The notes below the pieces were generated by a model. It worked only from the letters and a program-made list of their open reading frames with translations. It did no database searches and was not told the DNA's origin. The translations under genes and the position numbers were made by a program. This document shows, piece after piece, positions 6,268-62,837 of a stretch of 64,000 nt of DNA. The stretch is taken from contig CAZZBB010000012.1 in assembly GCA_964652195.1 (NCBI GenBank), positions 36,537 through 100,536 of the forward strand. The letters run 5' to 3'. Source of the stretch: an uncultured bacterium. GTDB lineage: Bacteria; Poribacteria; WGA-4E; WGA-3G. Numbering within the stretch: position 1 is the stretch's first letter; each line of letters starts with the position of its first letter.

Positions 6268-6821
6268 AATTCCTTGCATCACCAAATGGAATTTGGTTTA
6301 TGCTTAGTTTAGGATGTGTTATAGCTTTATTATACCTATACTATAGATGGAAACAAATACCTGGTCTGACAGTGGAATTAATTAAGGATGATACATGGTT
6401 TATCAATCGAGATGACAATAACAAACTGGCAATCATTATATCACTACATTTGACAAATAAGTCAAGTTCACCAATTCAAATGCATAGATGTAAATTAAGT
6501 GGATATACCCCAAAAATGCCTCCTGAACAGATGTTTTTAGAAGGATATGATAAAACAGTCGAATTAGTTCTACCTAAATATGATTCATATTCTGAGATAG
6601 TCGGTAAATCTGAAAATATTACTTCATCCTATGTTCTTAATCCATATACCGAGCAAAGAATGTGGGTTTATTATGAATCTGGTATTGTAACCTTGACAAA
6701 CATATTACGTGCTCCAATTGTGATTAAAGATCTAAATGGAAAACGTAAATCTCTTCAAGTGGCTGTACCTCGAAATATGGAACAGATTCAACTTTATCGT
6801 GAAGCGGCAATGCGATGGTAA
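6237..6821 (+). CDS. Hypothetical protein with N-terminal TM helix
   Basis: 194-aa ORF overlapping the tsaC 3' end. One hydrophobic segment (IWFMLSLGCVIALLYLYY). No recognisable motif. Confidence 0.4.
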   Translation: MLQQTFKEILKFLASPNGIWFMLSLGCVIALLYLYYRWKQIPGLTVELIKDDTWFINRDDNNKLAIIISLHLTNKSSSPIQMHRCKLSGYTPKMPPEQMFLEGYDKTVELVLPKYDSYSEIVGKSENITSSYVLNPYTEQRMWVYYESGIVTLTNILRAPIVIKDLNGKRKSLQVAVPRNMEQIQLYREAAMRW

Positions 6822-6947
6822 CACGGAAATTTAAATCCTTCAAGAAAATCCTTATTCGTACATACTAAACTCCAATTATAACCCAAATTATTTGCCATTT
6901 TATCAGGTGTATGGTATCCTATATCTTCAAGGAGGAGTACCAAACCT

Positions 6948-7706: not shown

Positions 7707-7721
7707 TTTCTATCTTAGTAT

Positions 7722-9626: not shown

Positions 9627-9644
9627 AGGAAAGAGTTATAATAA

Positions 9645-10640
9645 GTGTTAGATTTTCGTGAACGTTTAAATCTTGATATTCCTATTTTATATGATGGTGG
9701 TTTCGGTTCACAGTTATTTGCCCGGAATATTCAACTTGCTAATAGTGCGATAGCAAATGAATCACATCCTAACGATGTAGTTGGTATTCATTCTGATTAT
9801 ATTATTGCTGGTGCGGAAGCGATTGGAACAAATACTTTTGTCGTTTCTCCGCTTCACCTTGAAATAACAGATCAAGATGAATCTGAGGCTGAACGTCTAA
9901 CTCGACTTGCAGTGCAGCATGCAAAGTCTGCAGTAGAAAAACACGAAAAACATGTATATATCTCAGGTTCGGTAGGTCCATCCCCTGGCGCAATAGAGGC
10001 AGATAGCGGAGATACGACATTTGGTATTGCAAATGATAAAGTTCGTGAAGCTCATAAACTTGTTATCAATACGCTTGTAGATGAAGGGGTTGATTTTCTA
10101 TGTTTAGAAACAATGTTTTCTGCTAAAGAAGCTGCAATTGCTGTTGATATAGCAAGAGAAACAGGTCTACCAATAGCTGTAAATTTAACATATAAATGGA
10201 CAAAAGAACGTCGAACTGGGCAGGAAATATATAAGACAGACTGGGGACATAGTGCTCTTAACCTACTCGAAATTCTATCAAGTGGGGAGTTTTCCAATGG
10301 CGACTCACTTGTGGATTATGTTGATATAATAGGCTTAAATTGTGGTGCTGAATCTAAACTTGACGAACATACTGGCATGCCTTATGCAATCAAGGGTACA
10401 GAACAACTTAGAGATGCCATGATAAGTATGGGTATTAAGGGTAAAAAGATGATGGCATATCCCAACGCTGGAATGCCTATTCTTGATAAGGACTATAAAA
10501 CTGTATATACGCAAACACCAGCGGACATGGCAAAATATGTACCTGAATTAGTAGATGTTGGTGCATACTTTATTGGTGGATGCTGTGGGACAACTTCCAG
10601 TCACATTGCTGCATTCAGAAAAAGTATGGATTCACTATAG
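9645..10640 (+). CDS. Homocysteine S-methyltransferase (Pfam S-methyl_trans) domain protein, putative methylcorrinoid:thiol methyltransferase
   Basis: GTG start. ILYDGGFGSQL parallels MetH/BHMT ILDGxMGTxL. HSDYIIAGAEAIGTNTF parallels MetH HxxYxxAGADIIETNTF. The Zn-ligand motifs GLNCG and GGCCGTT are present. Confidence 0.7.
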   Translation: MLDFRERLNLDIPILYDGGFGSQLFARNIQLANSAIANESHPNDVVGIHSDYIIAGAEAIGTNTFVVSPLHLEITDQDESEAERLTRLAVQHAKSAVEKHEKHVYISGSVGPSPGAIEADSGDTTFGIANDKVREAHKLVINTLVDEGVDFLCLETMFSAKEAAIAVDIARETGLPIAVNLTYKWTKERRTGQEIYKTDWGHSALNLLEILSSGEFSNGDSLVDYVDIIGLNCGAESKLDEHTGMPYAIKGTEQLRDAMISMGIKGKKMMAYPNAGMPILDKDYKTVYTQTPADMAKYVPELVDVGAYFIGGCCGTTSSHIAAFRKSMDSL

Positions 10641-25306: not shown

Positions 25307-25606
25307 GAAGATACATGAAGTAGTATTATTTTTCTAAATTGATGCCATTAGATATAACATTACTGATAGTGGTGGCAAAAAGCACACGCTTGTAATTGGT
25401 CGCAGTATATATGCAAGGGTTAATGGTAAATGGAAGTATCAGACAGGTTAGTGGTTAGAAGCTAAAAAAATTAAAAAATGGTTTGACAAGCATAGCAGCA
25501 ATTAACTACACTATATTAGGTTTTGATACAATTACGGAGCAAAATAAGCGTAGGTTCAGCAAGAACCTACGCTTATTATAGTGCTTTGCAAAACCAGAGG
25601 TTTCAC

Positions 25607-26107
25607 ATGAAATATCAATTGGTAATCCAAGACCTTAGTATACCGGTGCCAGGTGTACCTTCGTGGAGTATACCCTTATGTTCTAACCATAACGTTTACT
25701 TTGGTTGCTTAGGGCATATAGCCGAGGAGGATATAAAAACAAACCGTATAGATAGCCAATTTTATAATGGAGAAGATACAGCTATCGTCTTAGATATTGA
25801 TATAGATGCCAAAGTCGTGAGACACACCTGTTTGGCCCGTAAAAAAGAGACGACTGTGCAGTCAACAGTGGCGTTGGGTATAGGTGATGATATAGTGGAT
25901 GCGGGGGCTAAATTCACAGTAGGTCAGACGACGTATATAGCGATAACCGAGAGTGTAAAAGAGACGGTTAATACCCCTGTGGTTTCGCTAAGAGATAGTG
26001 TATATGCCGGCGTAGATTTTGATCGTCGTGCGCTATGCTCTGCCCACGCGGATTTTGATTTTGAGGGCAATGATTTTGACGAAGGTTCGGTCTGGTATCA
26101 GCCTTGA
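25607..26107 (+). CDS. Hypothetical protein
   Basis: An internal ATG at 25607 follows an AGAGG RBS; the ORF track starts at 25523, but a strong hairpin at 25544-25575 falls inside that longer ORF. No recognisable domain. It is the first gene of the GC-richer island. Confidence 0.4.
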   Translation: MKYQLVIQDLSIPVPGVPSWSIPLCSNHNVYFGCLGHIAEEDIKTNRIDSQFYNGEDTAIVLDIDIDAKVVRHTCLARKKETTVQSTVALGIGDDIVDAGAKFTVGQTTYIAITESVKETVNTPVVSLRDSVYAGVDFDRRALCSAHADFDFEGNDFDEGSVWYQP

Positions 26108-26172
26108 ATAACTTTTAGATGCGACTTGGCACCCCGGTTTATACTGTCGGGGTACCCTAAAGTAGAATTCCC

Positions 26173-27792
26173 ATGAGAATAAAACATGCTTTTACAATAC
26201 TTTTTGTTATCCTCTTTGGCATTAGTGTTTTTATCTTTTTACGAAGTTCTAATGTCCTTCCCAATGGTGATAAACTTGTCTTTCTCAATGGTGATAAACT
26301 GAAACCGAGAACTCCGGATGGTCCTGTCTCCACGTTAGAAAAAGCGGCGCGTGTGGCGTTGCATCCACTCGCAGCAGATTGGAAAACAGTTGAAGCAGCA
26401 ATGAAGCAGCGTGTTTTATCTTGGGAGGATTGGGCTCGGAAAACAGTTGAAATCGGGTGTGCGATGGACGTGCTGTATGGACATATAAACACCCCTGAAG
26501 AGGTTGCAGCGGCACGCGAAAAACAGTTAGCGATACAACTGAAATGGGCTGCCGACTGTGAATCTAGAGGGTCTATTCTTCCTAACTATCCTTTTGAGAT
26601 TCCGAAGGTTTCCCCTAAGAAGCGGTTTGACTACGAAGGACCTCAGACGAGCGAAGCACTGCTGGCAGCGTTTGATCGGAAGTGGATGGAACGTTATCCG
26701 CAATCGGTGGATTGGGACGCACATTATCCCAAAGCCGCCTGGATTGACCGAATTGTGAGTCTGGGCGGTGAAGTCCAAAGTTACGGCGATTATAGTTTTT
26801 ACCTTAAATTGCGCAGAGACCTTATCAAACACAAAGAGTCCCCGCACAAATGGCATAGTGGGGCGTTCGGTATCCCTCCAACAACGAACTTTGAGGAATA
26901 CGAAACAGGCTATATCAATAGAAAGATTTGGGAAAATGATATACGCAAAGAGGTTCGCTCTAACTACCCTGACGAGCCCAAGATTACAACCTATTTCCCC
27001 AGTGATCAACCTGATAAATACCTTCCTGTAGTAGGTAACATGACGTATGTCTACAGAAAGCCGAATAGCAGTGCAGTGAGAACCTATGGTAAATTGCTGA
27101 CTGATGAAGAGGTAAAGGACCTGAGAAATAAAGGCATAGAACCGAAGGATGTTGAAATTGTCTACATTGATGACGAATACAATGTCCTTACCGAAAAACC
27201 GAAACCCTATAACCATCAAGAGTGGTTAGAAAAAAACTCTTATGACATTGTCCCCGAAGGACTCCGTGCGCCGGATGGCACCATCGTGTCCCCTGAGCGT
27301 TATCAGGAAATAAGAGGTCAAGAGATGCCTTATGAGACGCGGCAAAGGTATGATGAATATATCGGTGATTCCCCTGCTGCTGTGGATCCTGCTGCTGCTG
27401 AGGCGGAACGCCGAGCCGTATTAACCCGCGAAGCTGCCCGTGCGGAATTTGAACGATTTAAAGAGGATATGCGCCAAATAGAAAAGTTTCAGTCTATGGC
27501 AGCAAACGAGGTATCCCGTAAGTTTGCGTTGGAGTTTCTGTCTCAATACACGCCGAAGTCCGCCACGGATAAACGGCTCCAAACGGCACTGCAAACGATG
27601 TTTCAACGTGGGTTTGATGACGGGCTGCACAGCCTGCGAAAAGACGACCCTGCCCTGGCAGCAGAGTTAGAACGGCAGCTTGCCGAAACATACAGACCAC
27701 CACAACCGCAGTTGCGACGACTAAAGACCGTGCCCCAAAAGACCGTGCCCCCTAATCCAGCGGAGACACCTCCCGCAGGGGATACGGACTAA
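26173..27792 (+). CDS. Hypothetical 539-aa protein with N-terminal membrane anchor
   Basis: Long ORF with about 50% GC and a hydrophobic N-terminus (AFTILFVILFGISVFIFL). The antisense strand also carries long ORFs, as expected for GC-rich DNA. No motif recognised. Confidence 0.5.
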   Translation: MRIKHAFTILFVILFGISVFIFLRSSNVLPNGDKLVFLNGDKLKPRTPDGPVSTLEKAARVALHPLAADWKTVEAAMKQRVLSWEDWARKTVEIGCAMDVLYGHINTPEEVAAAREKQLAIQLKWAADCESRGSILPNYPFEIPKVSPKKRFDYEGPQTSEALLAAFDRKWMERYPQSVDWDAHYPKAAWIDRIVSLGGEVQSYGDYSFYLKLRRDLIKHKESPHKWHSGAFGIPPTTNFEEYETGYINRKIWENDIRKEVRSNYPDEPKITTYFPSDQPDKYLPVVGNMTYVYRKPNSSAVRTYGKLLTDEEVKDLRNKGIEPKDVEIVYIDDEYNVLTEKPKPYNHQEWLEKNSYDIVPEGLRAPDGTIVSPERYQEIRGQEMPYETRQRYDEYIGDSPAAVDPAAAEAERRAVLTREAARAEFERFKEDMRQIEKFQSMAANEVSRKFALEFLSQYTPKSATDKRLQTALQTMFQRGFDDGLHSLRKDDPALAAELERQLAETYRPPQPQLRRLKTVPQKTVPPNPAETPPAGDTD

Positions 27793-27982
27793 ATGAAGCA
27801 TCTGATACATTGGAGCAGCCTCGTGCTGCTCCTTATCGGGGTGCGGACTACTTCTATAGCCGGACCACTACAGACGTAGCTTCTCTGTGAGTACGTCACT
27901 GGGATGAGATAGACGTGGCGGCTATCCAAAGAGACTATCAACCTTAGAGACAGAAGAACAGATATCAGAGTATCTGCTGTGG

Positions 27983-28845
27983 GTGCTTCTCTTTGTACCG
28001 ACACTTTACCTCTTTTCACCGCCCTATCGTAGTGGCGGGGGATGGACAACCCATGCCACCGCTTTTTTACTCGCCTCCCCTATCGTCATGCTACTGCTAC
28101 GCACCGGACGGTATTTTCTGACACGCACACAGCACCCCTTTGCAAAGGTTGTCACAGAAAAGATGTCCGCACGCGGTATCTCACTGGTTCTCTGTGCCAT
28201 ATGCATCCTCAGCGGAATTGCTTATATCGTGCTTGTGCGGGATACATTTTGCACAGGATACACCAATATCAAGAACACGTATCTAACGCGACGACAGAAC
28301 AAAAACCATTAGATTTTCTAAAAACATACAACGTGACACACATACTTCTCAGTGAAGAAGATGTGCTGAACATCGCTTCTCTGCACACGGATGAACAAGA
28401 CGAATACCTAACTTCTATGGTGAGACTACTGCCACGCTCTTATACCGGCAGTACACATGCCAGATTGATACCGGCACACAAAAAAACGTTGCTCAGTTTT
28501 GTGGAGATCGATTTCTATCACAAACCAACTACCGCCACAGCAAAACTAAAAAACGGTAAAACAGTAAATATCGGATACGTCAAGTCCGATAGCACAGCAG
28601 AGAAAAAAAATGAAAAATACGGGGGAATGCTACATCTATTCGATCCAAAAACACACCAAGAAGCCATATACTACCTATCCCCGCAGATTTGGAATAGTTT
28701 CGCTATCAAACTATTTTTCCGAAACCAATATAGCAAAGCGTTTGTGCCCGTATATCCACAACAAACAGGAAACGCAAAAGTCAAAATATGGGAGATACAG
28801 TATCCGACAGATATAAATGAAAATCTGAAATATCTCGAAAGGTAA
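27983..28845 (+). pseudogene. Probable frameshifted gene (hypothetical membrane protein)
   Basis: ORF 27983-28312 reads as a membrane N-terminus. ORF 28042-28845 is protein-like only after about 28300 (KPLDFLKTYNVTHILLSEEDV...). Its first 80 codons are His/Arg/Cys-rich out-of-frame noise. A +1/-1 shift near 28290-28315 would join the two halves. Confidence 0.35.
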
Positions 28846-29358
28846 ATGAAAATGATACGCATCTTGAAACAATGCTGCATATATGGCGGGATCCTTTTCT
28901 TTGGACTTGTCATTACAAATGCGACACTACAACGATTGGTAAAACCAACACCGATAAAAGTGTACGTGATACCGAAAACAGAAAAGAAAGAATATATAAA
29001 AAGAAATACAAAACTCTATGAACACCTAAAACCGAAACCGATTGACCGGCAGAAAGTATTTGATAACACAATCATTGAGAATAACATCTTCGCACCCCTC
29101 GGATACAAACCGCCCAAAAAAACACACACTTATAGACTCGTCGGAACACAGATACCAATCGGGAGAGAAACAGAGGCAATAGCGATATTACAAGAGACCA
29201 CCGGCGAGAAAAATATGCTGAGCGTTTCCATCGGAACAAAAATAGCACAGGACACAGTGGTCATGGACATAAAACCCAAGCAGATAATCATCAAAAAAGG
29301 GAATAGACGGACCCTCCTGAGGTTAGAGACATGGCTACTCCTAAATAACAGAAGGTAG
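28846..29358 (+). CDS. Hypothetical single-TM protein (weak GspC/PilP-like pattern)
   Basis: N-terminal TM (CCIYGGILFFGLVI). The C-terminal region RLVGTQIPIGRETEAIAIL...IIIKKGNRRTLL is reminiscent of GspC/PilP beta-domains. Low confidence. Confidence 0.4.
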   Translation: MKMIRILKQCCIYGGILFFGLVITNATLQRLVKPTPIKVYVIPKTEKKEYIKRNTKLYEHLKPKPIDRQKVFDNTIIENNIFAPLGYKPPKKTHTYRLVGTQIPIGRETEAIAILQETTGEKNMLSVSIGTKIAQDTVVMDIKPKQIIIKKGNRRTLLRLETWLLLNNRR

Positions 29359-30601: not shown

Positions 30602-31183
30602 TTATCGATTTTCAAAGGCAGTAATGTCTGCTTCGTATTGAAGTGTCCAACCAATTTCATCGAGTCCGTTTAGTAGACAGTACTTTTCAAAGTCGCCTAT
30701 CTCAAATGTGTGGGTAGTTCCATCAGGACAAATTACCGATTGTACTTCGAGGTCAATCATCAATTGATAGCCTTCTGTGTCTTGTGCTGCTTTGCTAAGT
30801 TCTGTGATGATATCTGCTGGTAATGAGACCGGTAGGATTCCATTCTTATAGCAATTGTTGCGGAAGATGTCTGCAAAGGAGGGTGCGAGAACGGCTTTAA
30901 ATCCGTATTGCTGAAGTGCCCAGGGGGCATGTTCACGAGAACTACCGCAACCGAAGTTTATTCCAGCGATGAGAATACTGGCGTCAGCATACTTGGGTTG
31001 GTTCAATATAAAATCTGGATTTGGATCACCGTTTTCAAGATACCGCCAATCGTTAAAGAGAAATTCACCGAATCCAGTACGTTCAATTCGTTTTAGGAAT
31101 TGTTTCGGGATAATCTGATCGGTATCAACATTAATTCGGTCAAGAGGTACGACGAATCCAACATGTTCTTTAAATGCTTCCAT
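30602..31183 (-). CDS. leuD: 3-isopropylmalate dehydratase small subunit
   Basis: Shows [17 protein letters not shown] and [12 protein letters not shown]. Confidence 0.9.
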
Positions 31184-31575
31184 TATAACACCTCAATGGG
31201 TTCTTTTCGTTTCCTTTCAGTTTGATCGAAGTCTGTATCGAAACTAATGAGTTGCATCTCATATTTCGCAGCGACAGCGTATTGGTATGCATCGTCAAAG
31301 TCAAGATTGAATTTATCTGCTATGCGTTCCAACGTTTTAAGATCTTCTGGGGATAATGATAGGATGCCAACTCCGTCAACAATTATGTCCTCAAGAAACG
31401 AATTAAAAAGCGTAAAATATTTCAATCGAAACAGAATAATCCCTATAGAATGTAGGGACAGATCCGTTATGTAGATTGTGCTCAAGTCGTTAATTTGTAA
31501 GAATGATTGGACATCATCCTTTTTGTCTTGTCCCAACAAAGCTTCAAGGAAGATGTTAGTATCTGCGAGGTACAC
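31183..31575 (-). CDS. PIN-domain toxin (VapC-like)
   Basis: [12 protein letters not shown] fits the PIN N-terminal Asp motif. A GTG start at 31575 follows GGAGG and overlaps the antitoxin stop as TAGTG; the ORF track extends to 31656. Its stop overlaps the leuD start. Confidence 0.6.
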
Positions 31576-31778
31576 TATTCCCTCCAATCTGACGCTTTTT
31601 TCTGAAGTTCGAGGGCTGTAAACTGGTCTCGAAACGCTTTTAATCCACCAATCCATTCTAAGTTTGGTTTTTTCTTCCGTTTTGAACTTTTTTTTGTATG
31701 TAAGAAATCAATGAAGTGAATGACTTCTTCTTGGAGTTCCGGAGGAAGTTCCCTAATTTTTTCAATGATAGATTCCAT
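31575..31778 (-). CDS. DUF2281-like antitoxin
   Basis: 67 aa. MESIIEKIRELPPELQEEVIHFIDFLHTKK matches the DUF2281 pattern. It is translationally coupled to the downstream PIN gene. Confidence 0.55.
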   Translation of the reverse strand: MESIIEKIRELPPELQEEVIHFIDFLHTKKSSKRKKKPNLEWIGGLKAFRDQFTALELQKKASDWRE

Positions 31779-31817
31779 TGTTGTCTCCGTATTTTTCAGG
31801 GTAGAGTGGACACAGGT

Positions 31818-31845
31818 ATTTTAAGCAAGCCTTTGACTTATCCAA
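31818..31845 (-). promoter_or_regulatory. Candidate sigma70-type promoter for the toxin-antitoxin pair
   Basis: Minus strand reads TTGGAT, 16 bp, TAAAAT, with GGAG 8 nt before the antitoxin ATG. The -35 box overlaps the leuC stop. Confidence 0.3.
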
Positions 31846-33238
31846 ACGTTCGTATGTCCACAAAATGTCCTGTTACAGCAGTTGCTGCAGCCATTTGTGG
31901 ACTAACAAGGTGTGTCCTTCCACCTTTACCTTGTCTACCCTCAAAGTTTCTGTTAGATGTGCTTGCACACCTTTGTCCTGGTGTCAGCGTGTCTGGATTC
32001 ATTCCAAGGCACATACTGCATCCTGCTTCTCTCCATTCGAAACCTGCTGATTGGAAGATCTCATCAAGTCCTTCTGCTTCAGCTTGCCGTTTGACGGCTT
32101 GTGAACCAGGCACAACCATTGCACTGACGGTGTCTGCGACCTTTCTACCTTTTGCCACCTCTGCGGCTGCCCGTAAATCACTAATACGAGAGTTGGTACA
32201 ACTACCAATAAAAACTCGATCAACTGGGATGTTGGTTATCGGTGTACCCGGTTTTAAATCCATATATTCTAATGCGTGTTCAGCTGCCCGTTTTTCATCT
32301 TGTGATTCCATTTTATCAGGATCTGGTACCTGTCCAGTAACATCGGTGACCATACCAGGATTTGTACCCCAAGTAATTTGGGGTGCTATATCGGCAGCAT
32401 CAAGAATAAGGGTTTTATCATAGGTTGCCCCGTCATCTGTTGGGAGTTGTTTCCAACGTTCAACTGCAGCATCAAATGCTTCGTCTTTAGGAGCGAAACG
32501 TTTTCCGGCAAGGTATTCATAGGTCGTGTCATCTGGTGCAATCATCCCTGCGCGAGCACCTGCTTCAATTGACATATTACATACAGTCATCCGTTCTTCA
32601 ATGCTAAGGGATCGTATAGTGGAACCTGTGTATTCAACTACAGCGCCATTTCCTCCATCAATACCGATATGTCCGATAATAGAGAGGATGATGTCTTTTG
32701 CTGTTACCCCATAAGGGAGTGTGCCGTCAACCCGGATTTCAAAGGTTTCTGATTTTTGTTGTAGTAAGCATTGTGTCGCAAGGACATGTTCAATTTCACT
32801 TGTTCCGATACCGAAAGCGAGTGCTCCTAAGGCACCATGTGTTGAGGTGTGGCTATCACCGCATACAATTGTCATGCCGGGTTGAGTGATGCCGAGTTCT
32901 GGACCAATGACGTGGACGATTCCTTGATCGGGACTGTTGATGTCGTAGAGAGGAATGTCAAACTCTTTACAGTTTTGTGATAGAGTCTCCATCTGCTTGG
33001 CAGCGATCAGGTCAGTAATAGGCAGCGACCTATCCGTCGTCGGTACGTTGTGATCCATAGTTGCGAAGGTTAACTCTGGTCTGCGTACTTTTCTGTTGTT
33101 GATTCGTAACCCTTCAAATGCTTGTGGGGATGTGACCTCGTGTACAAGGTGTGTGTCAATATATAGTATGGGAACTTCGTCTTCGGATGCTCGGACGAGA
33201 TGTGTGTCCCATATTTTTTCGTACATTGTTTTTTTCAT
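31838..33238 (-). CDS. leuC: 3-isopropylmalate dehydratase large subunit
   Basis: 466 aa with an aconitase-family Fe-S ligand region ([18 protein letters not shown]). Confidence 0.9.
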
Positions 33239-39340: not shown

Positions 39341-41455
39341 CTATGCTTCCTCTTCTTCTTCCTCACCTTCTTTTGATATCGCTATAACCTTCTGTGCAAC
39401 ATCATCTGGGACAATCTCATAATTTGAGAATTCCATAGTAAACTGCCCGCGTGCACTTGTCATAGATTTCAAATCAATGGAATAACGAAACATTTCTGAA
39501 AGTGGCACTAAGGCATTTATTTCTTGTCGTTTACCAACTTGTTCAACCCCCATTACCTGTCCACGTCGTCCATTAAGATCACCTATGATACTTCCCATAT
39601 ATTGGTCGGGAACTGAGATTGAGACGTTCATGATAGGTTCAAGTAAGCACGGATCAGCTTGTTGTACCGCAGTAGCAAATGCCATGGAACCAGCAATTTG
39701 GAAAGCCATATCAGATGAATCAACATCATGATATTTCCCATCGTATAGGTCTATCTGAATGTCAACTAATGGATAACCGGCAATTAGTCCACGATCCATT
39801 CTGTCGCGTATACCTTTTTCTACGGCTGGAATGTAATTGCTTGGTATCACACCACCTTTAATGTTGTTAATAAATTCAAATCCTTCACCGCGTTGAAGCG
39901 GTCCTAAATTTATTGTAACATCCCCAAATTGTCCTTTTCCACCCGATTGTTTTTTGTGTCTTTCTTGTACACCTTTAACACTTCGTCGCACAGTTTCCCG
40001 ATAGGGAACTTTGGGAGGGAATAATTCTGTTTCAACACTGAATTTCTCTACAATTCTCTGACGATTCACATTGATGTGAAGTTCCCCTAAACCTGAAACT
40101 AACAACTGTTTGGTCACATCATTCCTTTCAATTTTGAATGATGGATCTTCTTCTGAAATCCGATTAAGGGCGGTGATAAGTTTTTCGTCGTCTCCCTCAC
40201 GTGTAGGTGAAATAGCAAAAGAGATTACAGCCTGAGGAAATTCAATTCCGGGAAGTATAATTGAATTATCTCTATCGCAAAGAGTATCCCCAGTCTGGGT
40301 GAGAGATAGTTTTGTCAATGCGCCAATATCACCAGCAGGTATACTGGTGGTGTTTATTGATTGGTTACCATTCATGTATGCTGGTTTTCCAATTCTTTCC
40401 AACTCACCACGATTAGGATTATTTGCTTGTATATCACCCGTTAAAGATCCGGAATACACGCGGAATAAACTGAGTTGTCCTGAAAATGGGTCTGCGATTG
40501 TTTTGAATACAAGGGCAGACATCGGTGCTTCTGTTGATGGTTCTCGAGTATTGGATTCGTCATCTGCATCATGGACAGCACCTACCTGTTCAGGTGAAGG
40601 ACAACAATTTACAAGCGTATCCATTAACTGTTGTACACCAATGTTTTTTAAGGCGGATCCGCATAGAACTGGTACAAACTGACTTTCAAGGATTCCCGTC
40701 TGAATTCCTTGCTGAATTTCTTCATCAGATAGTTCACCTTCAAAAAACTTCTCAATTAATGCGTCATCACTTTCAGCGGCGACTTCAACGAGTGCTTCTC
40801 TTGTTTCTTCAGCTGCAGTTGTTAGGTCGTCAGGAATATCAGATTTTGCGATAGGAGCGTTACTACCTGGTTCAAGAAATGCTCCATTCTGTACAACATC
40901 AACCACCCCTGTGAACTGGTCTTCTTTTCCTATCGGTAGTTGAATCGGTACAGCACGTGTTTCTAATATTTCGGATATACTTGCAAGCGCATTTTCAAAG
41001 CTTGCATTTTCTTTATCCATTTTATTTATAAATAGTAGTCTTGGCAGATTATATTTATCCGCAATTTCCCATACTTTTTCGGTTCCACCCTCTACACCTG
41101 TAGTAGCATCTACAACCACGATAACCGCATCTACAACTCGAAGCACACCGTATAGGTCTCCGTAAAAATCCTCTGCTCCGGGTGTATCAATTAGATTTAG
41201 TTTATGTTCGTCCCATTCCGCGATACACACTGAACAATTTAGTGACGTTTTCCGTTCAATCTCATCAGAGGCATAATCAGCTACCGTGTTTCCATCATCC
41301 ACAGATCCCATCCGCTCTATGGCACCACCGTTGTATAGCATAGCTTCAATTAGGGATGTTTTGCCAGCCCCTGAATGAGAAATAATACCGATATTCCGAA
41401 TTTCTTCTGTTCTGTATTGTCTCATCTTCTTAGAAAGTTCTCCTTTTGTAACCAC
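39341..41455 (-). CDS. Elongation factor G family translational GTPase paralogue (non-canonical G1 and switch-II)
   Basis: Five-domain EF-G architecture of 704 aa. G1 is ISHSGAGKTS and G4 is NKMD. Switch II is DTPGAEDF, so the catalytic His of DTPGH is replaced by Ala. The C-terminus is an acidic tail, EGEEEEEEA. Confidence 0.8.
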   Translation of the reverse strand: MVTKGELSKKMRQYRTEEIRNIGIISHSGAGKTSLIEAMLYNGGAIERMGSVDDGNTVADYASDEIERKTSLNCSVCIAEWDEHKLNLIDTPGAEDFYGDLYGVLRVVDAVIVVVDATTGVEGGTEKVWEIADKYNLPRLLFINKMDKENASFENALASISEILETRAVPIQLPIGKEDQFTGVVDVVQNGAFLEPGSNAPIAKSDIPDDLTTAAEETREALVEVAAESDDALIEKFFEGELSDEEIQQGIQTGILESQFVPVLCGSALKNIGVQQLMDTLVNCCPSPEQVGAVHDADDESNTREPSTEAPMSALVFKTIADPFSGQLSLFRVYSGSLTGDIQANNPNRGELERIGKPAYMNGNQSINTTSIPAGDIGALTKLSLTQTGDTLCDRDNSIILPGIEFPQAVISFAISPTREGDDEKLITALNRISEEDPSFKIERNDVTKQLLVSGLGELHINVNRQRIVEKFSVETELFPPKVPYRETVRRSVKGVQERHKKQSGGKGQFGDVTINLGPLQRGEGFEFINNIKGGVIPSNYIPAVEKGIRDRMDRGLIAGYPLVDIQIDLYDGKYHDVDSSDMAFQIAGSMAFATAVQQADPCLLEPIMNVSISVPDQYMGSIIGDLNGRRGQVMGVEQVGKRQEINALVPLSEMFRYSIDLKSMTSARGQFTMEFSNYEIVPDDVAQKVIAISKEGEEEEEEA

Positions 41456-41624
41456 ACGGAATAGGTCAAACTATGCCGTTATTAAGATATATAATTTTAG
41501 CACATGTGATAGAAAATAGCAACTTAAACGATTTGAAATAGTGTGAATCTGTAAGACATCATAGGAAATATTAGTATTTTTCACCAAATAGGATATAATT
41601 GTAGATACAAATTGAATTGAATAG

Positions 41625-42002
41625 GTGATTAGAATGAAAGGATTTTTCTTTATAATAGGTTCAGCATTTTGCTTACTGAGTGTGTTCATGGGTGCGTTCG
41701 GTGCCCATACTCTTAAAACTAAAATATCAAAAGAGATGTTAGACATCTTTGAAGTGGCTGTACGATATCAAGTATATCACGGTATAGGTCTAATAATTGT
41801 GTCCTGGGCAATATCACAATGGCAGAATTCCTTTACAACCGCAGCTGGATGGTGTTTCATCGGTGGAATAGCTATCTTTTCTGGCAGTTTATACATTCTC
41901 AGTATGACTGGTATCCGTTGGCTTGGTGCCTTGACTCCGATTGGTGGGTTAGCTTTCATTGCAGGATGGGCATGCTTGATATTGGCTGTTTTCCGGAAGT
42001 GA
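41625..42002 (+). CDS. DUF423 (YgdD/TMEM256) small membrane protein
   Basis: Four TM helices in 125 aa. GAFGAH and HGIGLII are characteristic. Confidence 0.7.
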   Translation: MIRMKGFFFIIGSAFCLLSVFMGAFGAHTLKTKISKEMLDIFEVAVRYQVYHGIGLIIVSWAISQWQNSFTTAAGWCFIGGIAIFSGSLYILSMTGIRWLGALTPIGGLAFIAGWACLILAVFRK

Positions 42003-55803: not shown

Positions 55804-57579
55804 TTAATTGCTACCAACCAAACGTTGTGCCTTCATTTTTCGCTTAGACTTGGTCTTTGTGCGTTTATTATTTATAGGTTTTTCTACTATTTTCTCTGGT
55901 TCAATCTCTTCGGATTGAGCAATCATTTCTTGTTGTTCTGCTTCATATTCAGCATAAGTTCCATCAAAAAATCGGGTGGTGATTCCCTCTTTAGTACTCT
56001 CAAAAATCAACATTTTAGTGGCTAAACTATTTAACAAATACCGGTCATGTGAAATGATGAAAAGCGTGGCAGGATAATTCGAAAGTGCATTTTCAAGTGC
56101 TTCACGTGCGGGGATATCCAAATGGTTTGTTGGCTCATCAAGGAGAAGTACATTTGCCTTTTCCAATAGTAGCTTTGCCAGTTGAACACGACTTTGTTCC
56201 CCTCCGCTCAAGTTTCGGATCTGTTTAAACACATCATCACCAGAAAATAGAAATCTTGCTAAAAAGCCACGAACTTGTGTCTGTGTGTAGTCAGGACAAA
56301 GTTCCCAAATTTCTTCAAGGATCTCTTTGTCAAGATTGAGTCCTTCTAATTCTTGTGTATAATACCCAAATTTAAGTGTAGGTCCAACCCAGAGTTCCCC
56401 CTGTGTTGGCTGTTCTTCTCCTAACATCATACGGAAGAATGTAGTCTTTCCAACACCATTTGGACCGAGAATACCAACCACATCTCCACGAGATACCTCA
56501 AAGGTTAGATCTGTGAACAAGACTTTTTCATCAAACTGTTTGCTAACTTTATGGCAACGAAGGATATCATCACCGCCACGTGTCTCTGCAGAGAAGTTAA
56601 GGTTCAACGAAGGAGAATCAGTACTCGGTTTTTCGACTTTTTCCATTCTGTCTAATTTTTTTAGACGTCCTTGTGCTTCACGAGTTCGTTGACCGGCTAT
56701 GTTCCGTTCGATAAAATCCGATTCCTTGGTAATAAAGTCCTGTTGAATTTTGAATGTTCTTTCATCGACCAATCTCTCTACACCCTTTATTTCACAATAC
56801 TTGGAGTAATTGCCTCTGTAAATCTTGATTTGATGGTGATTCAAATCCCATACTTTACTGACAACATTATCTAAGAAATACCTATCGTGGGAAACAACAA
56901 GAACTGCCCCTTTATACTCGGTATTAATATAATTTTCCAACCATTCGATTCCATTAATATCGAGATGATTTGTCGGTTCATCCAGAAGTAGTAGGTCAGG
57001 ATCTTCAAGTAACAGTTTGCCAAGTGTGGCACGGCTTTTCTGTCCACCACTAAGAACGCTAACCGGTAGGTTGAAATCCTGTACACTAAAACCTAATCCA
57101 CCTAAAACGCGATTAATCAGATGTTCATAGTCATAACCCCCTAATCGGTCATGTTGATCTTGTAGACGAGAATACCGTTGTAAAAGTTGCGGGGTTTCCT
57201 GAGATTCCATCTGTTCTGCAAGTAGTAGCATCTGATCCTCAAGGGCAAGTCTATCTGCAAAAACCTTAAGCATTTCTTGTCGGAGTGTACAATCATGTTC
57301 TAATTCCGGTTCTTGGCTCAGGTAACCTACACGCATTCCTTTCGCTGGTATAACTTTTCCTTTGAAATCCGTGAGTATACCACACATAATCTTCAGTAAC
57401 GTTGTCTTTCCACACCCATTTCGTCCAATCAAACCTAAGCGATCCCCAGGTGCAATCGAGATTGAAATATCATCCAGTATTATATCCGGATCATACATTT
57501 TCGTTACATTTTGTAATTCTACTAATGACATTATCTTTTGTCCTATAATCCATTTATCAGTGTGGTAATGTAGCCACAA
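55804..57579 (-). CDS. ABC-F family ATPase (tandem ABC domains, Lys-rich C-terminal tail)
   Basis: Two Walker A motifs (GRNGCGKTT, GPNGVGKTT) and two LSGG signatures. A more likely start is the internal Met at 57531 (MSLVELQNV). Confidence 0.8.
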   Translation of the reverse strand: MWLHYHTDKWIIGQKIMSLVELQNVTKMYDPDIILDDISISIAPGDRLGLIGRNGCGKTTLLKIMCGILTDFKGKVIPAKGMRVGYLSQEPELEHDCTLRQEMLKVFADRLALEDQMLLLAEQMESQETPQLLQRYSRLQDQHDRLGGYDYEHLINRVLGGLGFSVQDFNLPVSVLSGGQKSRATLGKLLLEDPDLLLLDEPTNHLDINGIEWLENYINTEYKGAVLVVSHDRYFLDNVVSKVWDLNHHQIKIYRGNYSKYCEIKGVERLVDERTFKIQQDFITKESDFIERNIAGQRTREAQGRLKKLDRMEKVEKPSTDSPSLNLNFSAETRGGDDILRCHKVSKQFDEKVLFTDLTFEVSRGDVVGILGPNGVGKTTFFRMMLGEEQPTQGELWVGPTLKFGYYTQELEGLNLDKEILEEIWELCPDYTQTQVRGFLARFLFSGDDVFKQIRNLSGGEQSRVQLAKLLLEKANVLLLDEPTNHLDIPAREALENALSNYPATLFIISHDRYLLNSLATKMLIFESTKEGITTRFFDGTYAEYEAEQQEMIAQSEEIEPEKIVEKPINNKRTKTKSKRKMKAQRLVGSN

Positions 57580-60161: not shown

Positions 60162-61406
60162 CTATTCTTTTCGCACAATTGAATTCAGAATTGGTAAAAG
60201 TGCACCTATAGTCGGAACATCACGGAATGTAAACCCATAGTGTGAGAAATAGCTTGATGTCTCTAATGCCTCTGCAATCGTAGCGTTTTTCTCTAATTCC
60301 TTGGATACTCCAATGATGAGCGGTATATCCGTCTTATTCGGTAGTGAATTCACCCGAGTAAGCAGATGTCCTTGATGCCATGGGTGGAATAATTCAATTG
60401 CAACTTCTACACCACTACTGTGGGTTAGTTGATAATCTGGGAAACAGTAGCTATCCCCAGGTAGAGGGAAGAATTGACTACCAGGTTGGATCTGCCACTT
60501 ATCAGTCTTGTTTTGAAGCATTTGCTGAAAGTGCTGAATATCTTCAGGGATATATGCAAGGAACTGTTGTGAAATTGGTTTAATTCCGCAGGAGTCATCA
60601 ATAGACAACTGAGAGGTACGTTTGTTTCTAAACTGAATTTCGGCAGTAAGTTCCCACTTCTGTTGATGTAGAACAGCGACAAAGAAGTTTGCCAAATTCA
60701 TACCGTACCGTTTTGTCTTATAGAATAAGTTCAGAGGACCATCCACAGTAATCTGGAAGATATCTCCTGTATCGGTTTTTTCTTTTCGAATGCTGGATAA
60801 AAGTTGGTGAAATCGAAGATACTTAAACAATTGTCGAAGTTCAGCAGTCATCGAATCTGTAAGTCTTAGTGTAAGTGAATTACAATGCAACAATAAACCT
60901 TGTACTTGGGCAGTATTATAGCGATGCAGTAGGTGTTCCGGAGAAATACTCCTAAATGACAGAATTTGTTGGCAACTCGGTAAATCTGCGTATAGATAAT
61001 CATGTAATTCTGTTTCTGGTAATTCCGAGTCGGCACCCATTAACGCAAGAACTTTTTGGTGGTATTCTGTATAGTCCTGAAATTGTTCTTGTGAGAGAAT
61101 ACGGCTTGTTTCTGTGAAAAGCCTGTTCCGAAAGGCAATCAGTTCTTCATTTGGTGCTGTATCGAATTCTGTACGATCTAACAGCAACTTTTCGAGTCCT
61201 CGTAAAATTATAGGGGACTCAGATGTACCATCAATTATCGTTTTACTATTATCTAATAGTGTTGATCTTTTATCGTCAGTAGCAGCTTCGAATATCGTGA
61301 TTAATTGTTCTGCGACCTTCAGCAATTTGGAATTCGTGGGATCAACAAATTGAGGGTATATTTGTCCCTTTTGTATCTTGTATCGGAGTAAGTCTTTAGT
61401 AAGCAT
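60162..61406 (-). CDS. DUF790 family protein (Bax1-like nuclease partner of XPB)
   Basis: 414 aa, encoded immediately downstream of the XPB-like helicase on the same strand. The DUF790/Bax1 assignment rests on this pairing and on size; it is recall-based. Confidence 0.5.
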   Translation of the reverse strand: MLTKDLLRYKIQKGQIYPQFVDPTNSKLLKVAEQLITIFEAATDDKRSTLLDNSKTIIDGTSESPIILRGLEKLLLDRTEFDTAPNEELIAFRNRLFTETSRILSQEQFQDYTEYHQKVLALMGADSELPETELHDYLYADLPSCQQILSFRSISPEHLLHRYNTAQVQGLLLHCNSLTLRLTDSMTAELRQLFKYLRFHQLLSSIRKEKTDTGDIFQITVDGPLNLFYKTKRYGMNLANFFVAVLHQQKWELTAEIQFRNKRTSQLSIDDSCGIKPISQQFLAYIPEDIQHFQQMLQNKTDKWQIQPGSQFFPLPGDSYCFPDYQLTHSSGVEVAIELFHPWHQGHLLTRVNSLPNKTDIPLIIGVSKELEKNATIAEALETSSYFSHYGFTFRDVPTIGALLPILNSIVRKE

Positions 61407-61421
61407 ACTTAGTTGATAAAG

Positions 61422-62837
61422 CTATTTTCTTTGATACGCGTTATGTTGTCGACGACGTTTATTGACAGAATGTTCACCGGTTTGTTTTGATATGAGTTCG
61501 TAAAGAACAGCTTGTTTACCTTCTTTTTTCCGTAGGATACGTCCTAAACGCTGCACATGTTCTCTGACACTCCCACTTCCAGAAACGATAATTGCAACAT
61601 TCGCTTCTGGGACATCAACCCCTTCATTCAACGCTTTTGAAGTGACTAAGATAGAATAGCTTCCATCACGGAATCCATTTAAAAAGGATGCTCGTTCTTT
61701 CTGTTTTGTCTGATGTGTTAGGACAGGTAAAAAGAATCGAGTCCCAATGTCGTAAGCAGTATCGTTATCTTGTGTAAAGATGATAATCCTATCTCCACGA
61801 TGTCTCTGAATTAGTTTCCACACCCATTCCTGTTTTGCTTTTGATGCAAAACTAAGTTGTTTTTGTGTTAGATACGCTTTGAATGCAGCACGTCCTTCAT
61901 CAGATTGAGAGGATTTCCACAGAAAATTCTTCCATCCACTTGATGTTCCCATATTGATATTTGATTTCCTAAGAAAGTCTAAATATGTTTTTCGTGCATC
62001 AAGATATTGTATCCGTTCTGTGTCTTCCATATCTATAGCCATAGTCACAACACGATAAGGGGCAAGTGTGTCTCCAGATAGATCCTGTACCTTTGCTTCA
62101 TAACAACATTCACCGACAAGTTCATAGAGCCTATTCTCCTTGCCATCCACACGATCAGGTGTTGCCGATAAACCTAAACGAAAAGGCGCAATACTGCTAA
62201 TAGCTGCATACTGATACTGATCGCCTGGAAGATGATGGCATTCATCGTAGATAGCAAAACCGAACCGATTGCCGTAGTGTGGGGCATGCATTACCGCAGA
62301 TTGATATGTTGTAACAGTTAGATCACTCAATTCGTGATGTCCACCCCCATATAAGCCAACTTCTTGGCCAAAATGTTCTTTTAGTACATCATACCACTGA
62401 TGCATTAGATCTATAGTTGGGACATGGACAAGTGCAGGTCGTTGCGTATCTTCAATCAGAAGAATAGCAATGAAGGTTTTACCCGCACCTGTAGGAAGAC
62501 TAATAACTCCACGTTTGTTGTTAGCATGCCAAGCATCAATGGCTTCAGACTGGTACGGATACGGAGTTAAGGATTTCTGACTTTGGAATGTCTGGACAGT
62601 GAATTGACGGGCAGAATCATTATATGGGAAGTTATGAGCACGAAGATGGGTAACTATATGACGATAACGGTATGCAGGGGCACGGTATGTTAGAGTGCGT
62701 TCGTCCCAACGGATATCTGGTAACTGTGCATGGATTTCCTCTGGGACGTTTTGTAGGATAAGGGTGCCTTTATCAAAGTCAATTGTTATCTGTTCCATAA
62801 GGCTGTATGCAAGAATGTCGTTTATAAACTGGTTCAC
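61422..62837 (-). CDS. XPB/ERCC3/Rad25-like SF2 DNA helicase
   Basis: Walker A LPTGAGKTFIA, DECHH box, motif III GLSATPDRVDG (a variant of the RED region), and motif VI QRLGRILR. Confidence 0.75.
   Translation of the reverse strand: MNQFINDILAYSLMEQITIDFDKGTLILQNVPEEIHAQLPDIRWDERTLTYRAPAYRYRHIVTHLRAHNFPYNDSARQFTVQTFQSQKSLTPYPYQSEAIDAWHANNKRGVISLPTGAGKTFIAILLIEDTQRPALVHVPTIDLMHQWYDVLKEHFGQEVGLYGGGHHELSDLTVTTYQSAVMHAPHYGNRFGFAIYDECHHLPGDQYQYAAISSIAPFRLGLSATPDRVDGKENRLYELVGECCYEAKVQDLSGDTLAPYRVVTMAIDMEDTERIQYLDARKTYLDFLRKSNINMGTSSGWKNFLWKSSQSDEGRAAFKAYLTQKQLSFASKAKQEWVWKLIQRHRGDRIIIFTQDNDTAYDIGTRFFLPVLTHQTKQKERASFLNGFRDGSYSILVTSKALNEGVDVPEANVAIIVSGSGSVREHVQRLGRILRKKEGKQAVLYELISKQTGEHSVNKRRRQHNAYQRK

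What the first reader, a model, noticed from the sequence alone, without database searches (positions are those of the whole stretch)
39341..41455. EF-G paralogue lacking the catalytic switch-II histidine and with an acidic tail
The sequence is co-linear with EF-G, including the NKMD G4 motif, but G1 is SHSGAGKTS and switch II is DTPGAEDF instead of DTPGH. Loss of the catalytic His predicts impaired ribosome-stimulated GTP hydrolysis. This could be a regulatory or ribosome-rescue paralogue rather than a translocase. It ends in EGEEEEEEA.
Basis: partly seen in the sequence, partly recalled or inferred. Interest (0 to 1): 0.55.

Follow-up and report, generated by a model that had tools for sequence, protein, structure and literature searches.

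The report
EF-G2-type paralogue of Poribacteria
This gene is a well-conserved second copy of the ribosome translocation factor EF-G, of the already described "EFG II / EF-G2" type whose members generally lack the catalytic histidine; here that position is alanine, a local variation and not a new kind of protein.

Summary
The minus-strand ORF 39341..41455 encodes a complete five-domain EF-G homologue. Its real start is probably the ATG at 41425, giving 694 aa. It has P-loop SHSGAGKTS, switch II DTPGAEDF (Ala aligned to the catalytic His of T. thermophilus EF-G), NKMD, and the tail EGEEEEEEA.

This is not a new kind of protein. It carries the published signature of the EFG II (EF-G2) subfamily. 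It groups with T. thermophilus EF-G-2 and about 140 other non-His cluster representatives, apart from canonical EF-G. In that family the His position is mostly Tyr or Phe.

The gene belongs to Candidatus Poribacteria. In 50 species genomes the position is Ala (43), Val (6) or Ser (1), and the next residue is almost always Glu. The nucleotide-binding residues and the tip of domain IV are invariant. The core G domain is the best conserved part.

My best reading is a GTP-binding alternative translocase or stress factor whose canonical, ribosome-triggered GTP hydrolysis is disabled or replaced. That reading is inferred, not shown.

I could not test whether the same genome also has a canonical fusA. 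Nothing canonical lies in the window or within 10 kb of the gene in 81 loci.

The parts
39341..41425 (-). Coding sequence of the EFG II-type EF-G paralogue (694 aa from ATG 41425; stop TAG 39341..39343). The mechanical ORF extends to a GTG at 41455 (704 aa).
41354..41380 (-). G1 / P-loop SHSGAGKTS. Lys and Thr are kept. The canonical Ile is Ser, and the Asp that binds the monovalent cation is Gly. The following residue is Leu, an EFG II signature (position 28 in T. thermophilus EF-G numbering).
   Evidence: PMC4342817; PMC3150367
41237..41257 (-). G2 / switch I ERKTSLN in place of the translational-GTPase consensus ERGITIT. The Mg-binding Thr is replaced by Ser, and the 'gate' Ile by Thr.
   Evidence: PMC3150367
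41165..41188 (-). G3 / switch II DTPGAEDF. Ala (codon GCA, 41174..41176) sits at the catalytic His position. It is followed by a Glu that is specific to the Poribacteria clade.
41015..41026 (-). G4 NKMD (guanine specificity), invariant or nearly so in Poribacteria.
40643..40660 (-). G5 GSALKN.
39923..39958 (-). Domain IV loop I HKKQSGGKGQFG, with the Lys-Lys pair typical of EFG II.
   Evidence: PMC3150367
39713..39733 (-). Domain IV loop II YHDVDSS. Its His, aligned with His573 of T. thermophilus EF-G, is invariant in every homologue examined.
39344..39370 (-). Acidic C-terminal tail EGEEEEEEA, predicted to continue the last helix of domain V.
41440..41444 (-). AGGAG, 14 nt upstream of the ATG at 41425; possible ribosome-binding site.
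   Evidence: read from the sequence; function not shown
41494..41522 (-). Promoter-like site (TTGCTA, 17 nt, TG-TAAAAT) in the 169-nt spacer shared with the divergent DUF423 gene. This is only a consensus match; the number of such sites equals the shuffle expectation.
41625..42002 (+). Divergently transcribed DUF423 membrane-protein gene. This adjacency is conserved in most of the Poribacteria loci (about 39 of 49), but no functional link is shown.

Best explanation
The gene encodes a member of the EFG II (EF-G2) subfamily of EF-G paralogues, in the form found throughout the phylum Candidatus Poribacteria.

Shown:
- The protein has the full five-domain EF-G architecture and is predicted to fold like ribosome-bound EF-G.
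- All residues that bind the guanine nucleotide and Mg2+ are kept.
- The domain IV tip that contacts the decoding centre during translocation is kept.
- Every element of the canonical, ribosome-triggered hydrolysis machinery is replaced: catalytic His to Ala, both hydrophobic-gate Ile residues to Ser and Thr, the monovalent-cation Asp to Gly, and a switch I Arg to Ile.
- These replacements are fixed by purifying selection.

Inferred:
- The protein binds GTP and the ribosomal factor site and can move tRNA-mRNA.
- GTP hydrolysis is either very slow or absent, as in M. smegmatis and B. thetaiotaomicron EF-G2 and the E. coli H92A mutant, or it runs by a non-His route, as T. thermophilus EF-G-2 must.
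- The protein would then act beside a canonical EF-G as a slow, energy-sparing or stress-time elongation factor.

The role of the conserved Glu next to the Ala, and of the acidic tail, is unknown.
For: Family signature. The protein has EFG II states at T. thermophilus EF-G positions 28 (Leu), 64 (Ser), 316 (Thr), 360 (Gly), 379 (Lys), 498/499 (Lys-Lys) and 543 (Glu). The canonical representatives have T, T, I/V, A and G at the first five (against Tables 1-2 of PMC3150367). The P-loop has Gly instead of Asp, as reported for EFGII (PMC4342817).

Tree. In a neighbour-joining tree the 8 canonical EF-G sequences separate from all 146 non-canonical ones. The latter include T. thermophilus EF-G-2 and the Poribacteria clade, whose sister carries DTPGYEDF.

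Nearest relatives. Outside Poribacteria the closest proteins are Nitrospirota proteins with DTPGFINF. Published Nitrospirae genomes carry both EFG and EFGII.

Active site. Nucleotide-binding residues K25, T26, D83, G86, K138 and D140 are invariant in the 120 Poribacteria homologues, and N137 is in 118 of 120. His573 of domain IV is invariant everywhere.

Conservation. The core G domain is 89% identical within Poribacteria, against 84% for domain IV and 71-76% for the G' subdomain, domain II and domain III.

Structure. The AlphaFold model has pLDDT 96.9. It gives TM 0.88-0.93 to ribosome-bound EF-G, 0.91 to B. thetaiotaomicron EF-G2 (8dmf) and 0.85 to 1wdt.

Location. The gene is not in a str operon. 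No rpsL, rpsG or tuf gene and no second EF-G lies within 10 kb in 81 loci or in the window.

Published biochemistry. E. coli EF-G H92A is highly deficient in GTP hydrolysis yet still gives slow multi-turnover translocation (PMC12775393). An H88Y change in M. smegmatis EF-G1 nearly abolishes GTPase, and M. smegmatis EF-G2 (Tyr98) lacks ribosome-dependent GTPase and is described as a stress-specific factor.
Against: - No biochemical or expression data exist for this protein or for any Poribacteria homologue, so the mechanism is entirely by analogy.
- The analogues disagree with each other: T. thermophilus EF-G-2 hydrolyses GTP, while the M. smegmatis and B. thetaiotaomicron proteins do not.
- Signature position 19 is Ser or Ala here, not the Gly found in 86% of EFG II.
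- The protein scores above the curated cut-off of the canonical EF-G model TIGR00484 (741 against 659).
- It, and even a profile of 135 non-His sequences, score higher against canonical EF-G structures than against the three solved EF-G2 proteins. T. thermophilus EF-G-2 itself behaves the same way, so this is weak evidence.
- The tree is neighbour-joining without bootstrap support.
- The presence of a canonical fusA in the same genome was not verified.
- The very high conservation of the protein, above that of all its neighbours, would also fit a more central role than 'back-up factor'.
Confidence: 0.62

Rival explanations
1. It is the only, or the main, translocase of Poribacteria: a whole phylum whose working EF-G has no catalytic histidine.
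For: The protein passes the TIGR00484 EF-G equivalog cut-off, and sources name it 'elongation factor G'. It is present in all 50 Poribacteria species loci recovered. It is more conserved (62-97% identity) than any neighbouring gene. Its G-domain core is its most conserved part. No canonical copy was seen, though only the window and 10 kb either side of each locus could be inspected.
Against: In 305 genomes analysed by Margus et al., a single EFG gene always belonged to EFG I (PMC3150367). The closest relatives (Nitrospirae) co-occur with EFG. The gene is not in a str operon. The E. coli H92A mutant needs tens of seconds per cycle, which is too slow for a sole translocase. The catalytic His is kept in all eight canonical EF-G sequences in my set; from general knowledge it is near-universal in primary translocases.
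Confidence: 0.06
2. It is a ribosome-binding stress or regulatory factor that no longer translocates. It would occupy the factor site of non-rotated or idle ribosomes, as proposed for M. smegmatis EF-G2.
For: It belongs to the same subfamily and has lost the same kind of SRL-contacting and catalytic residues.
Against: Domain IV loops I and II and the EFG II-specific Lys-Lys pair are invariant. That is expected if decoding-centre contacts, and therefore translocation, still matter. The M. smegmatis protein is much more divergent (436 bits against about 620 for canonical EF-G; G1 GPSGG, G4 TKLD).
Confidence: 0.17
3. It is a normal GTPase that hydrolyses GTP efficiently by another residue, for example the clade-specific Glu next to the Ala. 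This would resemble the 'HAS-GTPases', in which a hydrophobic residue replaces the catalytic Gln (from my own knowledge, not tested here).
For: Glu at His+1 is found in 118 of 120 Poribacteria homologues. Other EFG II have A, P, S, L or F there, and canonical EF-G has Val. The G-domain core is under the strongest constraint. T. thermophilus EF-G-2 is GTPase-active without His.
Against: There is no structural or biochemical evidence that this Glu can reach the gamma-phosphate. The P-loop Asp for the monovalent cation and both gate residues are also gone.
Confidence: 0.12
4. It is a tetracycline-type ribosomal protection protein or a recycling-only factor (spdEFG2 / mtEF-G2 type).
For: These are homologous families with the same domain order.
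Against: The tet_protect model scores 322 bits against a cut-off of 775. mtEF-G2 keeps its catalytic His and GTPase (mtEF-G2 His145). The alignment to T. thermophilus EF-G shows no insertion in switch I, so the spdEFG1 'KDG' marker is absent. The tree places the protein with EFG II.
Confidence: 0.03

Closest known systems
EFG II subfamily (Margus, Remm & Tenson 2011, PMC3150367; 'EFGII' of Atkinson 2015, PMC4342817)
   Same: Five of the six type I signature residues and all seven type II residues match. RGITI is relaxed to a motif that keeps only Ser/Thr. The P-loop Asp is Gly. There is no catalytic His. The gene is not in the str operon. The protein groups with T. thermophilus EF-G-2 in the tree.
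   Different: Position 19 is Ser or Ala, not Gly. The His position is a small residue (Ala, Val or Ser) followed by Glu, where most members have Tyr or Phe. The protein is unusually well conserved within its phylum, and its first three domains are not relaxed there.
Thermus thermophilus EF-G-2 (PDB 1WDT / 2DY1)
   Same: Same subfamily. G1 is GHAGSGKTT (Asp to Gly) and switch II is DAPGYGDF (no His). The predicted fold matches at TM 0.85-0.89.
   Different: Only 33% identity. It has Tyr, not Ala. It is shorter (about 658 aa), has G4 TKLD, and has no acidic tail. It is reported to be GTPase-active, which cannot be assumed here.
Mycobacterium smegmatis EF-G2 (PDB 9K0Z / 9K10)
   Same: Catalytic His replaced (Tyr98); SRL-contacting and gate residues lost; accessory, stress-linked role proposed.
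   Different: Much more divergent: G1 GPSGG, G4 with Thr and Leu, G5 not conserved. The Poribacteria protein keeps G1, G4 and G5 intact.
Bacteroides thetaiotaomicron EF-G2 (PDB 8DMF / 7UVP; NCBIfam NF058620)
   Same: An EF-G paralogue that translocates slowly without GTP hydrolysis. The predicted fold matches at TM 0.91.
   Different: The score of 622 bits is far below the NF058620 cut-off of 1000. The Bacteroides protein is about 24 residues longer, and the match breaks after profile position 511. I did not see which residue it has at the His position.
E. coli EF-G H92A mutant
   Same: The same residue change at the same position. It shows what Ala does in a canonical background: hydrolysis and Pi release are crippled, and multi-turnover translocation is slow but real (PMC12775393).
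   Different: It is a laboratory point mutant in an otherwise canonical active site. In the window protein the whole site has co-evolved.

Membership tests
EFG II (EF-G2) subfamily | G2 consensus RGITI relaxed, with Ser (or Thr) kept at the Mg-binding position (T. thermophilus EF-G position 64) | tested here: met
   ERKTSLN, with Ser at position 64. Poribacteria: T 71 / S 49. Non-His representatives: S 106 / T 32.
EFG II (EF-G2) subfamily | Type I position 28: Leu instead of Thr (99% in EFG II) | tested here: met
   Leu in the window protein and in 117 of 120 Poribacteria homologues. Canonical representatives mostly have Thr.
EFG II (EF-G2) subfamily | Type I positions 316 Thr, 360 Gly, 379 Lys/Arg (domain II) | tested here: met
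   T, G and K in the window protein. G and K are invariant in the 120 Poribacteria homologues. Canonical representatives have I/V, A and G.
EFG II (EF-G2) subfamily | Type I position 19: Gly instead of Ala (86% in EFG II) | tested here: not met
   Ser in the window protein, Ala in 116 of 120 Poribacteria homologues. Some deeper Poribacteria lineages do have Gly (GHSSTGKTS).
EFG II (EF-G2) subfamily | Type II positions (224 D, 258 V, 272 L, 498 K, 499 K, 543 E, 633 G) | tested here: met
   All seven match.
EFG II (EF-G2) subfamily | Phylogenetic grouping with known EFG II, apart from EFG I | tested here: met
   In a neighbour-joining tree of 154 sequences, the 8 canonical sequences separate from 146 others that include T. 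thermophilus EF-G-2. There are no support values, and no M. smegmatis or B. thetaiotaomicron sequences were included.
EFG II (EF-G2) subfamily | Occurs beside another EF-G (EFG I, or spdEFG1/2) in the same genome | not testable with these tools
   Only the 64-kb window and 10 kb either side of 81 loci could be read, and no second copy lies there.
Canonical EF-G (EFG I; TIGR00484) | Score above the curated cut-off of the equivalog model | tested here: met
   740.8 bits against a cut-off of 659.4. However, the subfamily model NF009381 scores higher, 918 bits.
Canonical EF-G (EFG I; TIGR00484) | Catalytic His in switch II (DTPGH), P-loop AHIDAGKT, and G2 RGITI | tested here: not met
   DTPGAEDF, SHSGAGKTS and ERKTSLN, aligned residue by residue to T. 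thermophilus EF-G.
Canonical EF-G (EFG I; TIGR00484) | Location in the str operon (rpsL-rpsG-fusA-tuf) | tested here: not met
   The neighbours are DUF423, PBP1C, alpha-2-macroglobulin and a TonB_C/FGE-sulfatase protein. There is no rpsL, rpsG or tuf in the window or in 81 loci.
Bacteroides-type EF-G2 (NCBIfam NF058620) | Score above the model cut-off (1000 bits), with a continuous match | tested here: not met
   621.9 bits, in two stretches; the best stretch stops at profile position 511 of 717. PDB 7uvp is 718 aa against 694 aa here.
Tetracycline ribosomal protection proteins (NF012153) | Score above the model cut-off (775 bits) | tested here: not met
   322.4 bits.
spdEFG1 | Three-residue 'KDG' insertion in switch I | tested here: not met
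   There is no gap or insertion between G1 and G3 in the alignment to T. thermophilus EF-G. The feature is taken from PMC3150367.

The most novel reading that the evidence does not exclude
In Poribacteria the EFG II paralogue may have become a hydrolysis-free, or Glu-catalysed, translocase that carries much or all of elongation in these slow-growing, mostly sponge-associated bacteria. It combines an Ala-Glu switch II with a fully intact nucleotide pocket. Its G domain is its most conserved part, and it is kept at 62-97% identity across the phylum. In the extreme version it is the only EF-G in the cell.
Probability: 0.1. Interest if true: 0.75.

Novelty: new member of a known kind. Interest (0 to 1): 0.27.

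Why it matters
As it stands, this is a correct reading of an ordinary member of a known but poorly understood family. Databases name the protein simply 'elongation factor G', which hides the fact that it cannot work like EF-G.

It has modest value as a natural experiment. A whole phylum has fixed the same His-to-Ala change that is used in the laboratory to cripple EF-G's GTPase, and it has done so with the rest of the nucleotide pocket intact. That makes it a clean candidate for testing whether EF-G2-type factors translocate without GTP hydrolysis.

It would matter much more if Poribacteria turned out to lack a canonical fusA.

Tried and rejected
(1) Finding a canonical fusA in the same genome. 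I tried a tblastn of the paralogue against the window and of T. thermophilus EF-G against 81 fetched loci. I also looked for seed genes near a str operon (rpsL, rpsG, tuf, rpsJ, rplC, rplB, rpoC, rplK, nusG) in the window and all loci. All were negative. No tool reads whole genomes by accession, and a protein-database search cannot be aimed at one phylum, so I ran no further search on it.

(2) Ranking solved structures with a profile of 135 non-His sequences, hoping the EF-G2 structures would come first. Canonical EF-G still ranked first. T. thermophilus EF-G-2 itself shows the same behaviour, so similarity ranking does not discriminate here. I used signature positions and a tree instead.

(3) Literature.
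- Han et al. 2023 (PMC9841332) is not held.
- No paper links Poribacteria and EF-G.
- Atkinson's supplementary tables contain no Poribacteria.
- The consensus-alignment PDF is garbled in the G3 region.
- Phrase searches across commas failed.

(4) Rfam and tRNA scans of the window found nothing.

(5) Readings rejected: decaying duplicate, because of strong conservation and synonymous codon turnover at the Ala; Tet-like protection protein and spdEFG types.
Full report
**The observation**

The window holds a minus-strand ORF at 39341..41455 of 704 codons, starting from a GTG. Pfam finds the complete EF-G domain set: GTP_EFTU, EF-G_D2, EFG_III, EFG_IV and EFG_C. The protein aligns over its whole length to T. 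thermophilus EF-G at E = 1.5e-186.

In that alignment SHSGAGKTS lies on AHIDAGKTT, ERKTSLN on ERGITIT, and DTPGAEDF on DTPGHVDF. Ala94 (codon GCA, 41174..41176) therefore occupies the position of the catalytic histidine. NKMD, GSALKN and the tail EGEEEEEEA are all present.

The only correction concerns the start. Every close homologue and every profile alignment begins at residue 11 (MRQYRT). An AGGAG lies 14 nt upstream of that ATG. The real product is therefore probably 694 aa, from 41425.

**Organism and spread**

The identical protein occurs on an NCBI contig of 137 kb and in a Logan assembly. The 120 best database homologues are at least 75% identical, and those that carry names are from Candidatus Poribacteria. 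Of these, 118 have exactly DTPGAEDF, and all 120 have Ala at the aligned position.

A scan of one genome per species returned 50 loci at 62% identity or more, 49 of them in records titled Poribacteria (62-97% identity). The next hits were at 45-49% identity: Nitrospirota, Mucispirillum, Omnitrophota, Chloroflexota, Bacillota and deltaproteobacteria.

In the 50 Poribacteria genes the position is:
- Ala in 43 (GCA 31, GCT 5, GCG 4, GCC 3),
- Val in 6,
- Ser in 1.

It is never His. The other phyla have Phe, Tyr or Asp. Synonymous turnover with a constant small residue means the state is selected. It is not an error or a decaying gene.

**What family it is**

NCBIfam's best model is NF009381, a subfamily model named 'elongation factor G', at 918 bits. 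The protein also passes the canonical equivalog TIGR00484 (741 against 659). That explains why databases call it plain 'elongation factor G'.

The 150 nearest representatives of clusters at 50% identity tell a different story. At the His position they carry Y 65, F 29, D 12, S 8, A 6, L 5 and N 5. Only about 9 are canonical AHIDAGKTT / DTPGHVDF proteins. The fourth P-loop residue is mostly Gly.

This matches the published EFG II (EF-G2) subfamily. Margus et al. define it by loss of RGITI, with only Ser kept, and by twelve signature positions (PMC3150367). Atkinson notes that EFGII carries Gly in place of the P-loop Asp that binds the monovalent cation (PMC4342817).

I mapped those positions through an alignment to T. 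thermophilus EF-G:

| Position (T. thermophilus EF-G numbering) | Window protein | Canonical representatives |
|---|---|---|
| 28 | Leu | Thr |
| 64 | Ser | Thr |
| 316 | Thr | Ile/Val |
| 360 | Gly | Ala |
| 379 | Lys | Gly |

The window protein also has all seven type II states (D224, V258, L272, K498, K499, E543, G633). Only position 19 fails: it is Ser or Ala, not Gly.

A neighbour-joining tree of 154 sequences separates the 8 canonical EF-G from all 146 others. T. thermophilus EF-G-2 and the Poribacteria clade both fall among the others. The sister of the Poribacteria clade carries DTPGYEDF, and the surrounding lineages carry Tyr or Phe. The Ala therefore most likely replaced an aromatic residue, not a histidine. 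I verified the T. thermophilus EF-G-2 sequence against PDB 1wdt (GHAGSGKTT, DAPGYGDF, TKLD).

Similarity ranking alone is misleading here. The protein, and even a profile of 135 non-His sequences, score higher against canonical EF-G structures than against the three solved EF-G2 proteins. T. thermophilus EF-G-2 does the same. This reflects the long branches of EFG II.

**Anatomy of the active site**

Within the 120 Poribacteria homologues the residues that hold the nucleotide and Mg2+ are invariant or conservatively varied: Lys25, Thr26, Asp83, Gly86, Asn137, Lys138, Asp140, Ser/Ala262 and Ala263 (T. thermophilus EF-G numbering).

Everything that belongs to the canonical, sarcin-ricin-loop-triggered hydrolysis mechanism is replaced (roles as described and PMC4342817):
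- His87 to Ala,
- the two 'hydrophobic gate' residues Ile21 and Ile63 to Ser and Thr,
- the cation-binding Asp22 to Gly,
- switch I Arg59 to Ile.

The residue after the Ala is Glu in 118 of 120. It is Val in canonical EF-G and A, P, S, L or F in other EFG II. This is a trait of the clade.

The domain IV tip is intact. Loop I is HKKQSGGKGQFG, and the His aligned with T. thermophilus His573 is invariant in every sequence examined.

Conservation by region within Poribacteria:
- core G domain: 89%,
- domains IV and V: 84%,
- G' subdomain, domain II and domain III: 71-76%.

So the G domain is constrained, not relaxed.

The AlphaFold model is confident (pLDDT 96.9, pTM 0.92). It superposes best on ribosome-bound EF-G (TM 0.88-0.93), on B. 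thetaiotaomicron EF-G2 (0.91) and on 1wdt (0.85). The acidic tail continues the last helix.

**The acidic tail**

Four or more acidic residues among the last eight occur in 81% of the Poribacteria homologues, in 22% of the other non-His representatives and in none of the 7 canonical ones. The tail is thus a family tendency that is exaggerated in this phylum, and this gene has the longest run. Its function is unknown.

**Genomic context**

The gene stands alone. Upstream lies a 169-nt AT-rich spacer shared with a divergent DUF423 gene. Beyond that are PBP1C and a bacterial alpha-2-macroglobulin. Downstream is a TonB_C/FGE-sulfatase protein.

The DUF423 adjacency is kept in most of the Poribacteria loci (about 39 of 49), and the PBP1C and macroglobulin genes lie further upstream in about 27 and 20 of them. 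The EF-G paralogue is the most conserved gene of the neighbourhood: 75-85% identity, against 54-78% for its neighbours.

There is no str operon and no second EF-G in the window or within 10 kb in any of 81 loci. There is also no rpsL, rpsG, tuf or rpoC. One promoter-like match lies upstream, but such matches occur at the chance rate.

**How it most likely works**

Shown by the sequence: the nucleotide pocket, the ribosome-binding architecture and the decoding-centre tip are preserved, and the canonical catalytic machinery is absent.

From published work:
- E. coli EF-G H92A is highly deficient in hydrolysis and Pi release, yet still translocates in multiple turnovers, taking more than 10-20 s per step (PMC12775393).
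- An H88Y change nearly abolishes the GTPase of M. smegmatis EF-G1.
- M. smegmatis EF-G2 (Tyr98) lacks ribosome-dependent GTPase and is described as stress-specific.
- B. thetaiotaomicron EF-G2 translocates slowly without hydrolysis.
- T. thermophilus EF-G-2, which also has no His, is reported to be GTPase-active and translocation-competent.

My inference is that the protein is a GTP-binding alternative elongation factor, used beside a canonical EF-G. It would translocate slowly, with hydrolysis that is either absent or non-canonical. I put about 0.9 on the family assignment and about 0.45 on that mechanism.

The rivals are: a non-translocating stress factor, a Glu-catalysed GTPase, the sole translocase of the phylum, and a Tet or recycling-type factor. 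They are weighed in their own section.

**What could not be done**

The indirect arguments are:
- Margus et al. found that single EFG genes were always EFG I.
- Nitrospirae, the closest relatives of this protein, have both EFG and EFGII.
- The gene has a non-str location.

I estimate about 0.93 that a canonical copy exists.

**Verdict**

This is a correct observation of an already described kind of protein, and a new, lineage-specific member of it (Ala-Glu switch II, strong acidic tail, unusually high conservation). Interest is low to moderate unless the genome check shows that no canonical EF-G exists.

Noticed in passing
window 41171..41173 (Glu95, the residue after the Ala): The residue after the missing His is Glu in 118 of 120 Poribacteria homologues, and also in the sister lineage (DTPGYEDF). 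It is Val in canonical EF-G and A, P, S, L or F in other EFG II. It could be an alternative catalytic or water-positioning residue; this is pure speculation.
   Followed up: partly
window 41625..42002 (+), and loci L002-L049: A DUF423 membrane-protein gene is divergently adjacent to the EF-G paralogue in about 39 of the 49 other Poribacteria loci. Of those 49, about 27 also have PBP1C and about 20 alpha-2-macroglobulin further upstream. No functional link is known.
   Followed up: partly
window 55804..57579 (-): An ABC-F family ATPase (two ABC_tran domains plus ABC_tran_Xtn) lies 15 kb from the paralogue. ABC-F proteins are another class of ribosome-associated factor.
   Followed up: no
window 25523..29358 (+): Four consecutive ORFs (194, 539, 267 and 170 aa) have no Pfam match. 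They lie in a stretch of raised G+C (0.43-0.48, against about 0.37 in the preceding 26 kb of the window). This may be acquired DNA.
   Followed up: no
window 2802..10640 (+): A BCCT betaine transporter is followed by a corrinoid protein (closest to glycine-betaine MtgC), a corrinoid reductive activase and a homocysteine-S-methyltransferase-like gene. Together they look like a glycine-betaine demethylation cluster. TsaD and TsaC lie between the transporter and the rest.
   Followed up: no
window 30602..33238 (-): Genes for the large and small subunits of an aconitase-family (isopropylmalate-isomerase-like) enzyme are separated by a PIN-domain ORF (31183..31656).
   Followed up: no
window 60162..62837 (-): An XPB-type helicase gene is paired with a DUF790 gene. 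From my own knowledge this resembles the archaeal XPB-Bax1 pair.
   Followed up: no
loci L038, L039, L040, L043, L045 (deeper Poribacteria, 66-67% identity): This sub-lineage has Val at the His position and GHS(S/G)TGKTS in the P-loop. That is the EFG II-typical Gly at position 19, which the main Poribacteria group lacks.
   Followed up: partly
representatives P0199 (1040 aa) and P0269 (1016 aa): Two canonical EF-G representatives carry N-terminal extensions of about 320-345 residues. These could be fusions or gene-calling artefacts.
   Followed up: no
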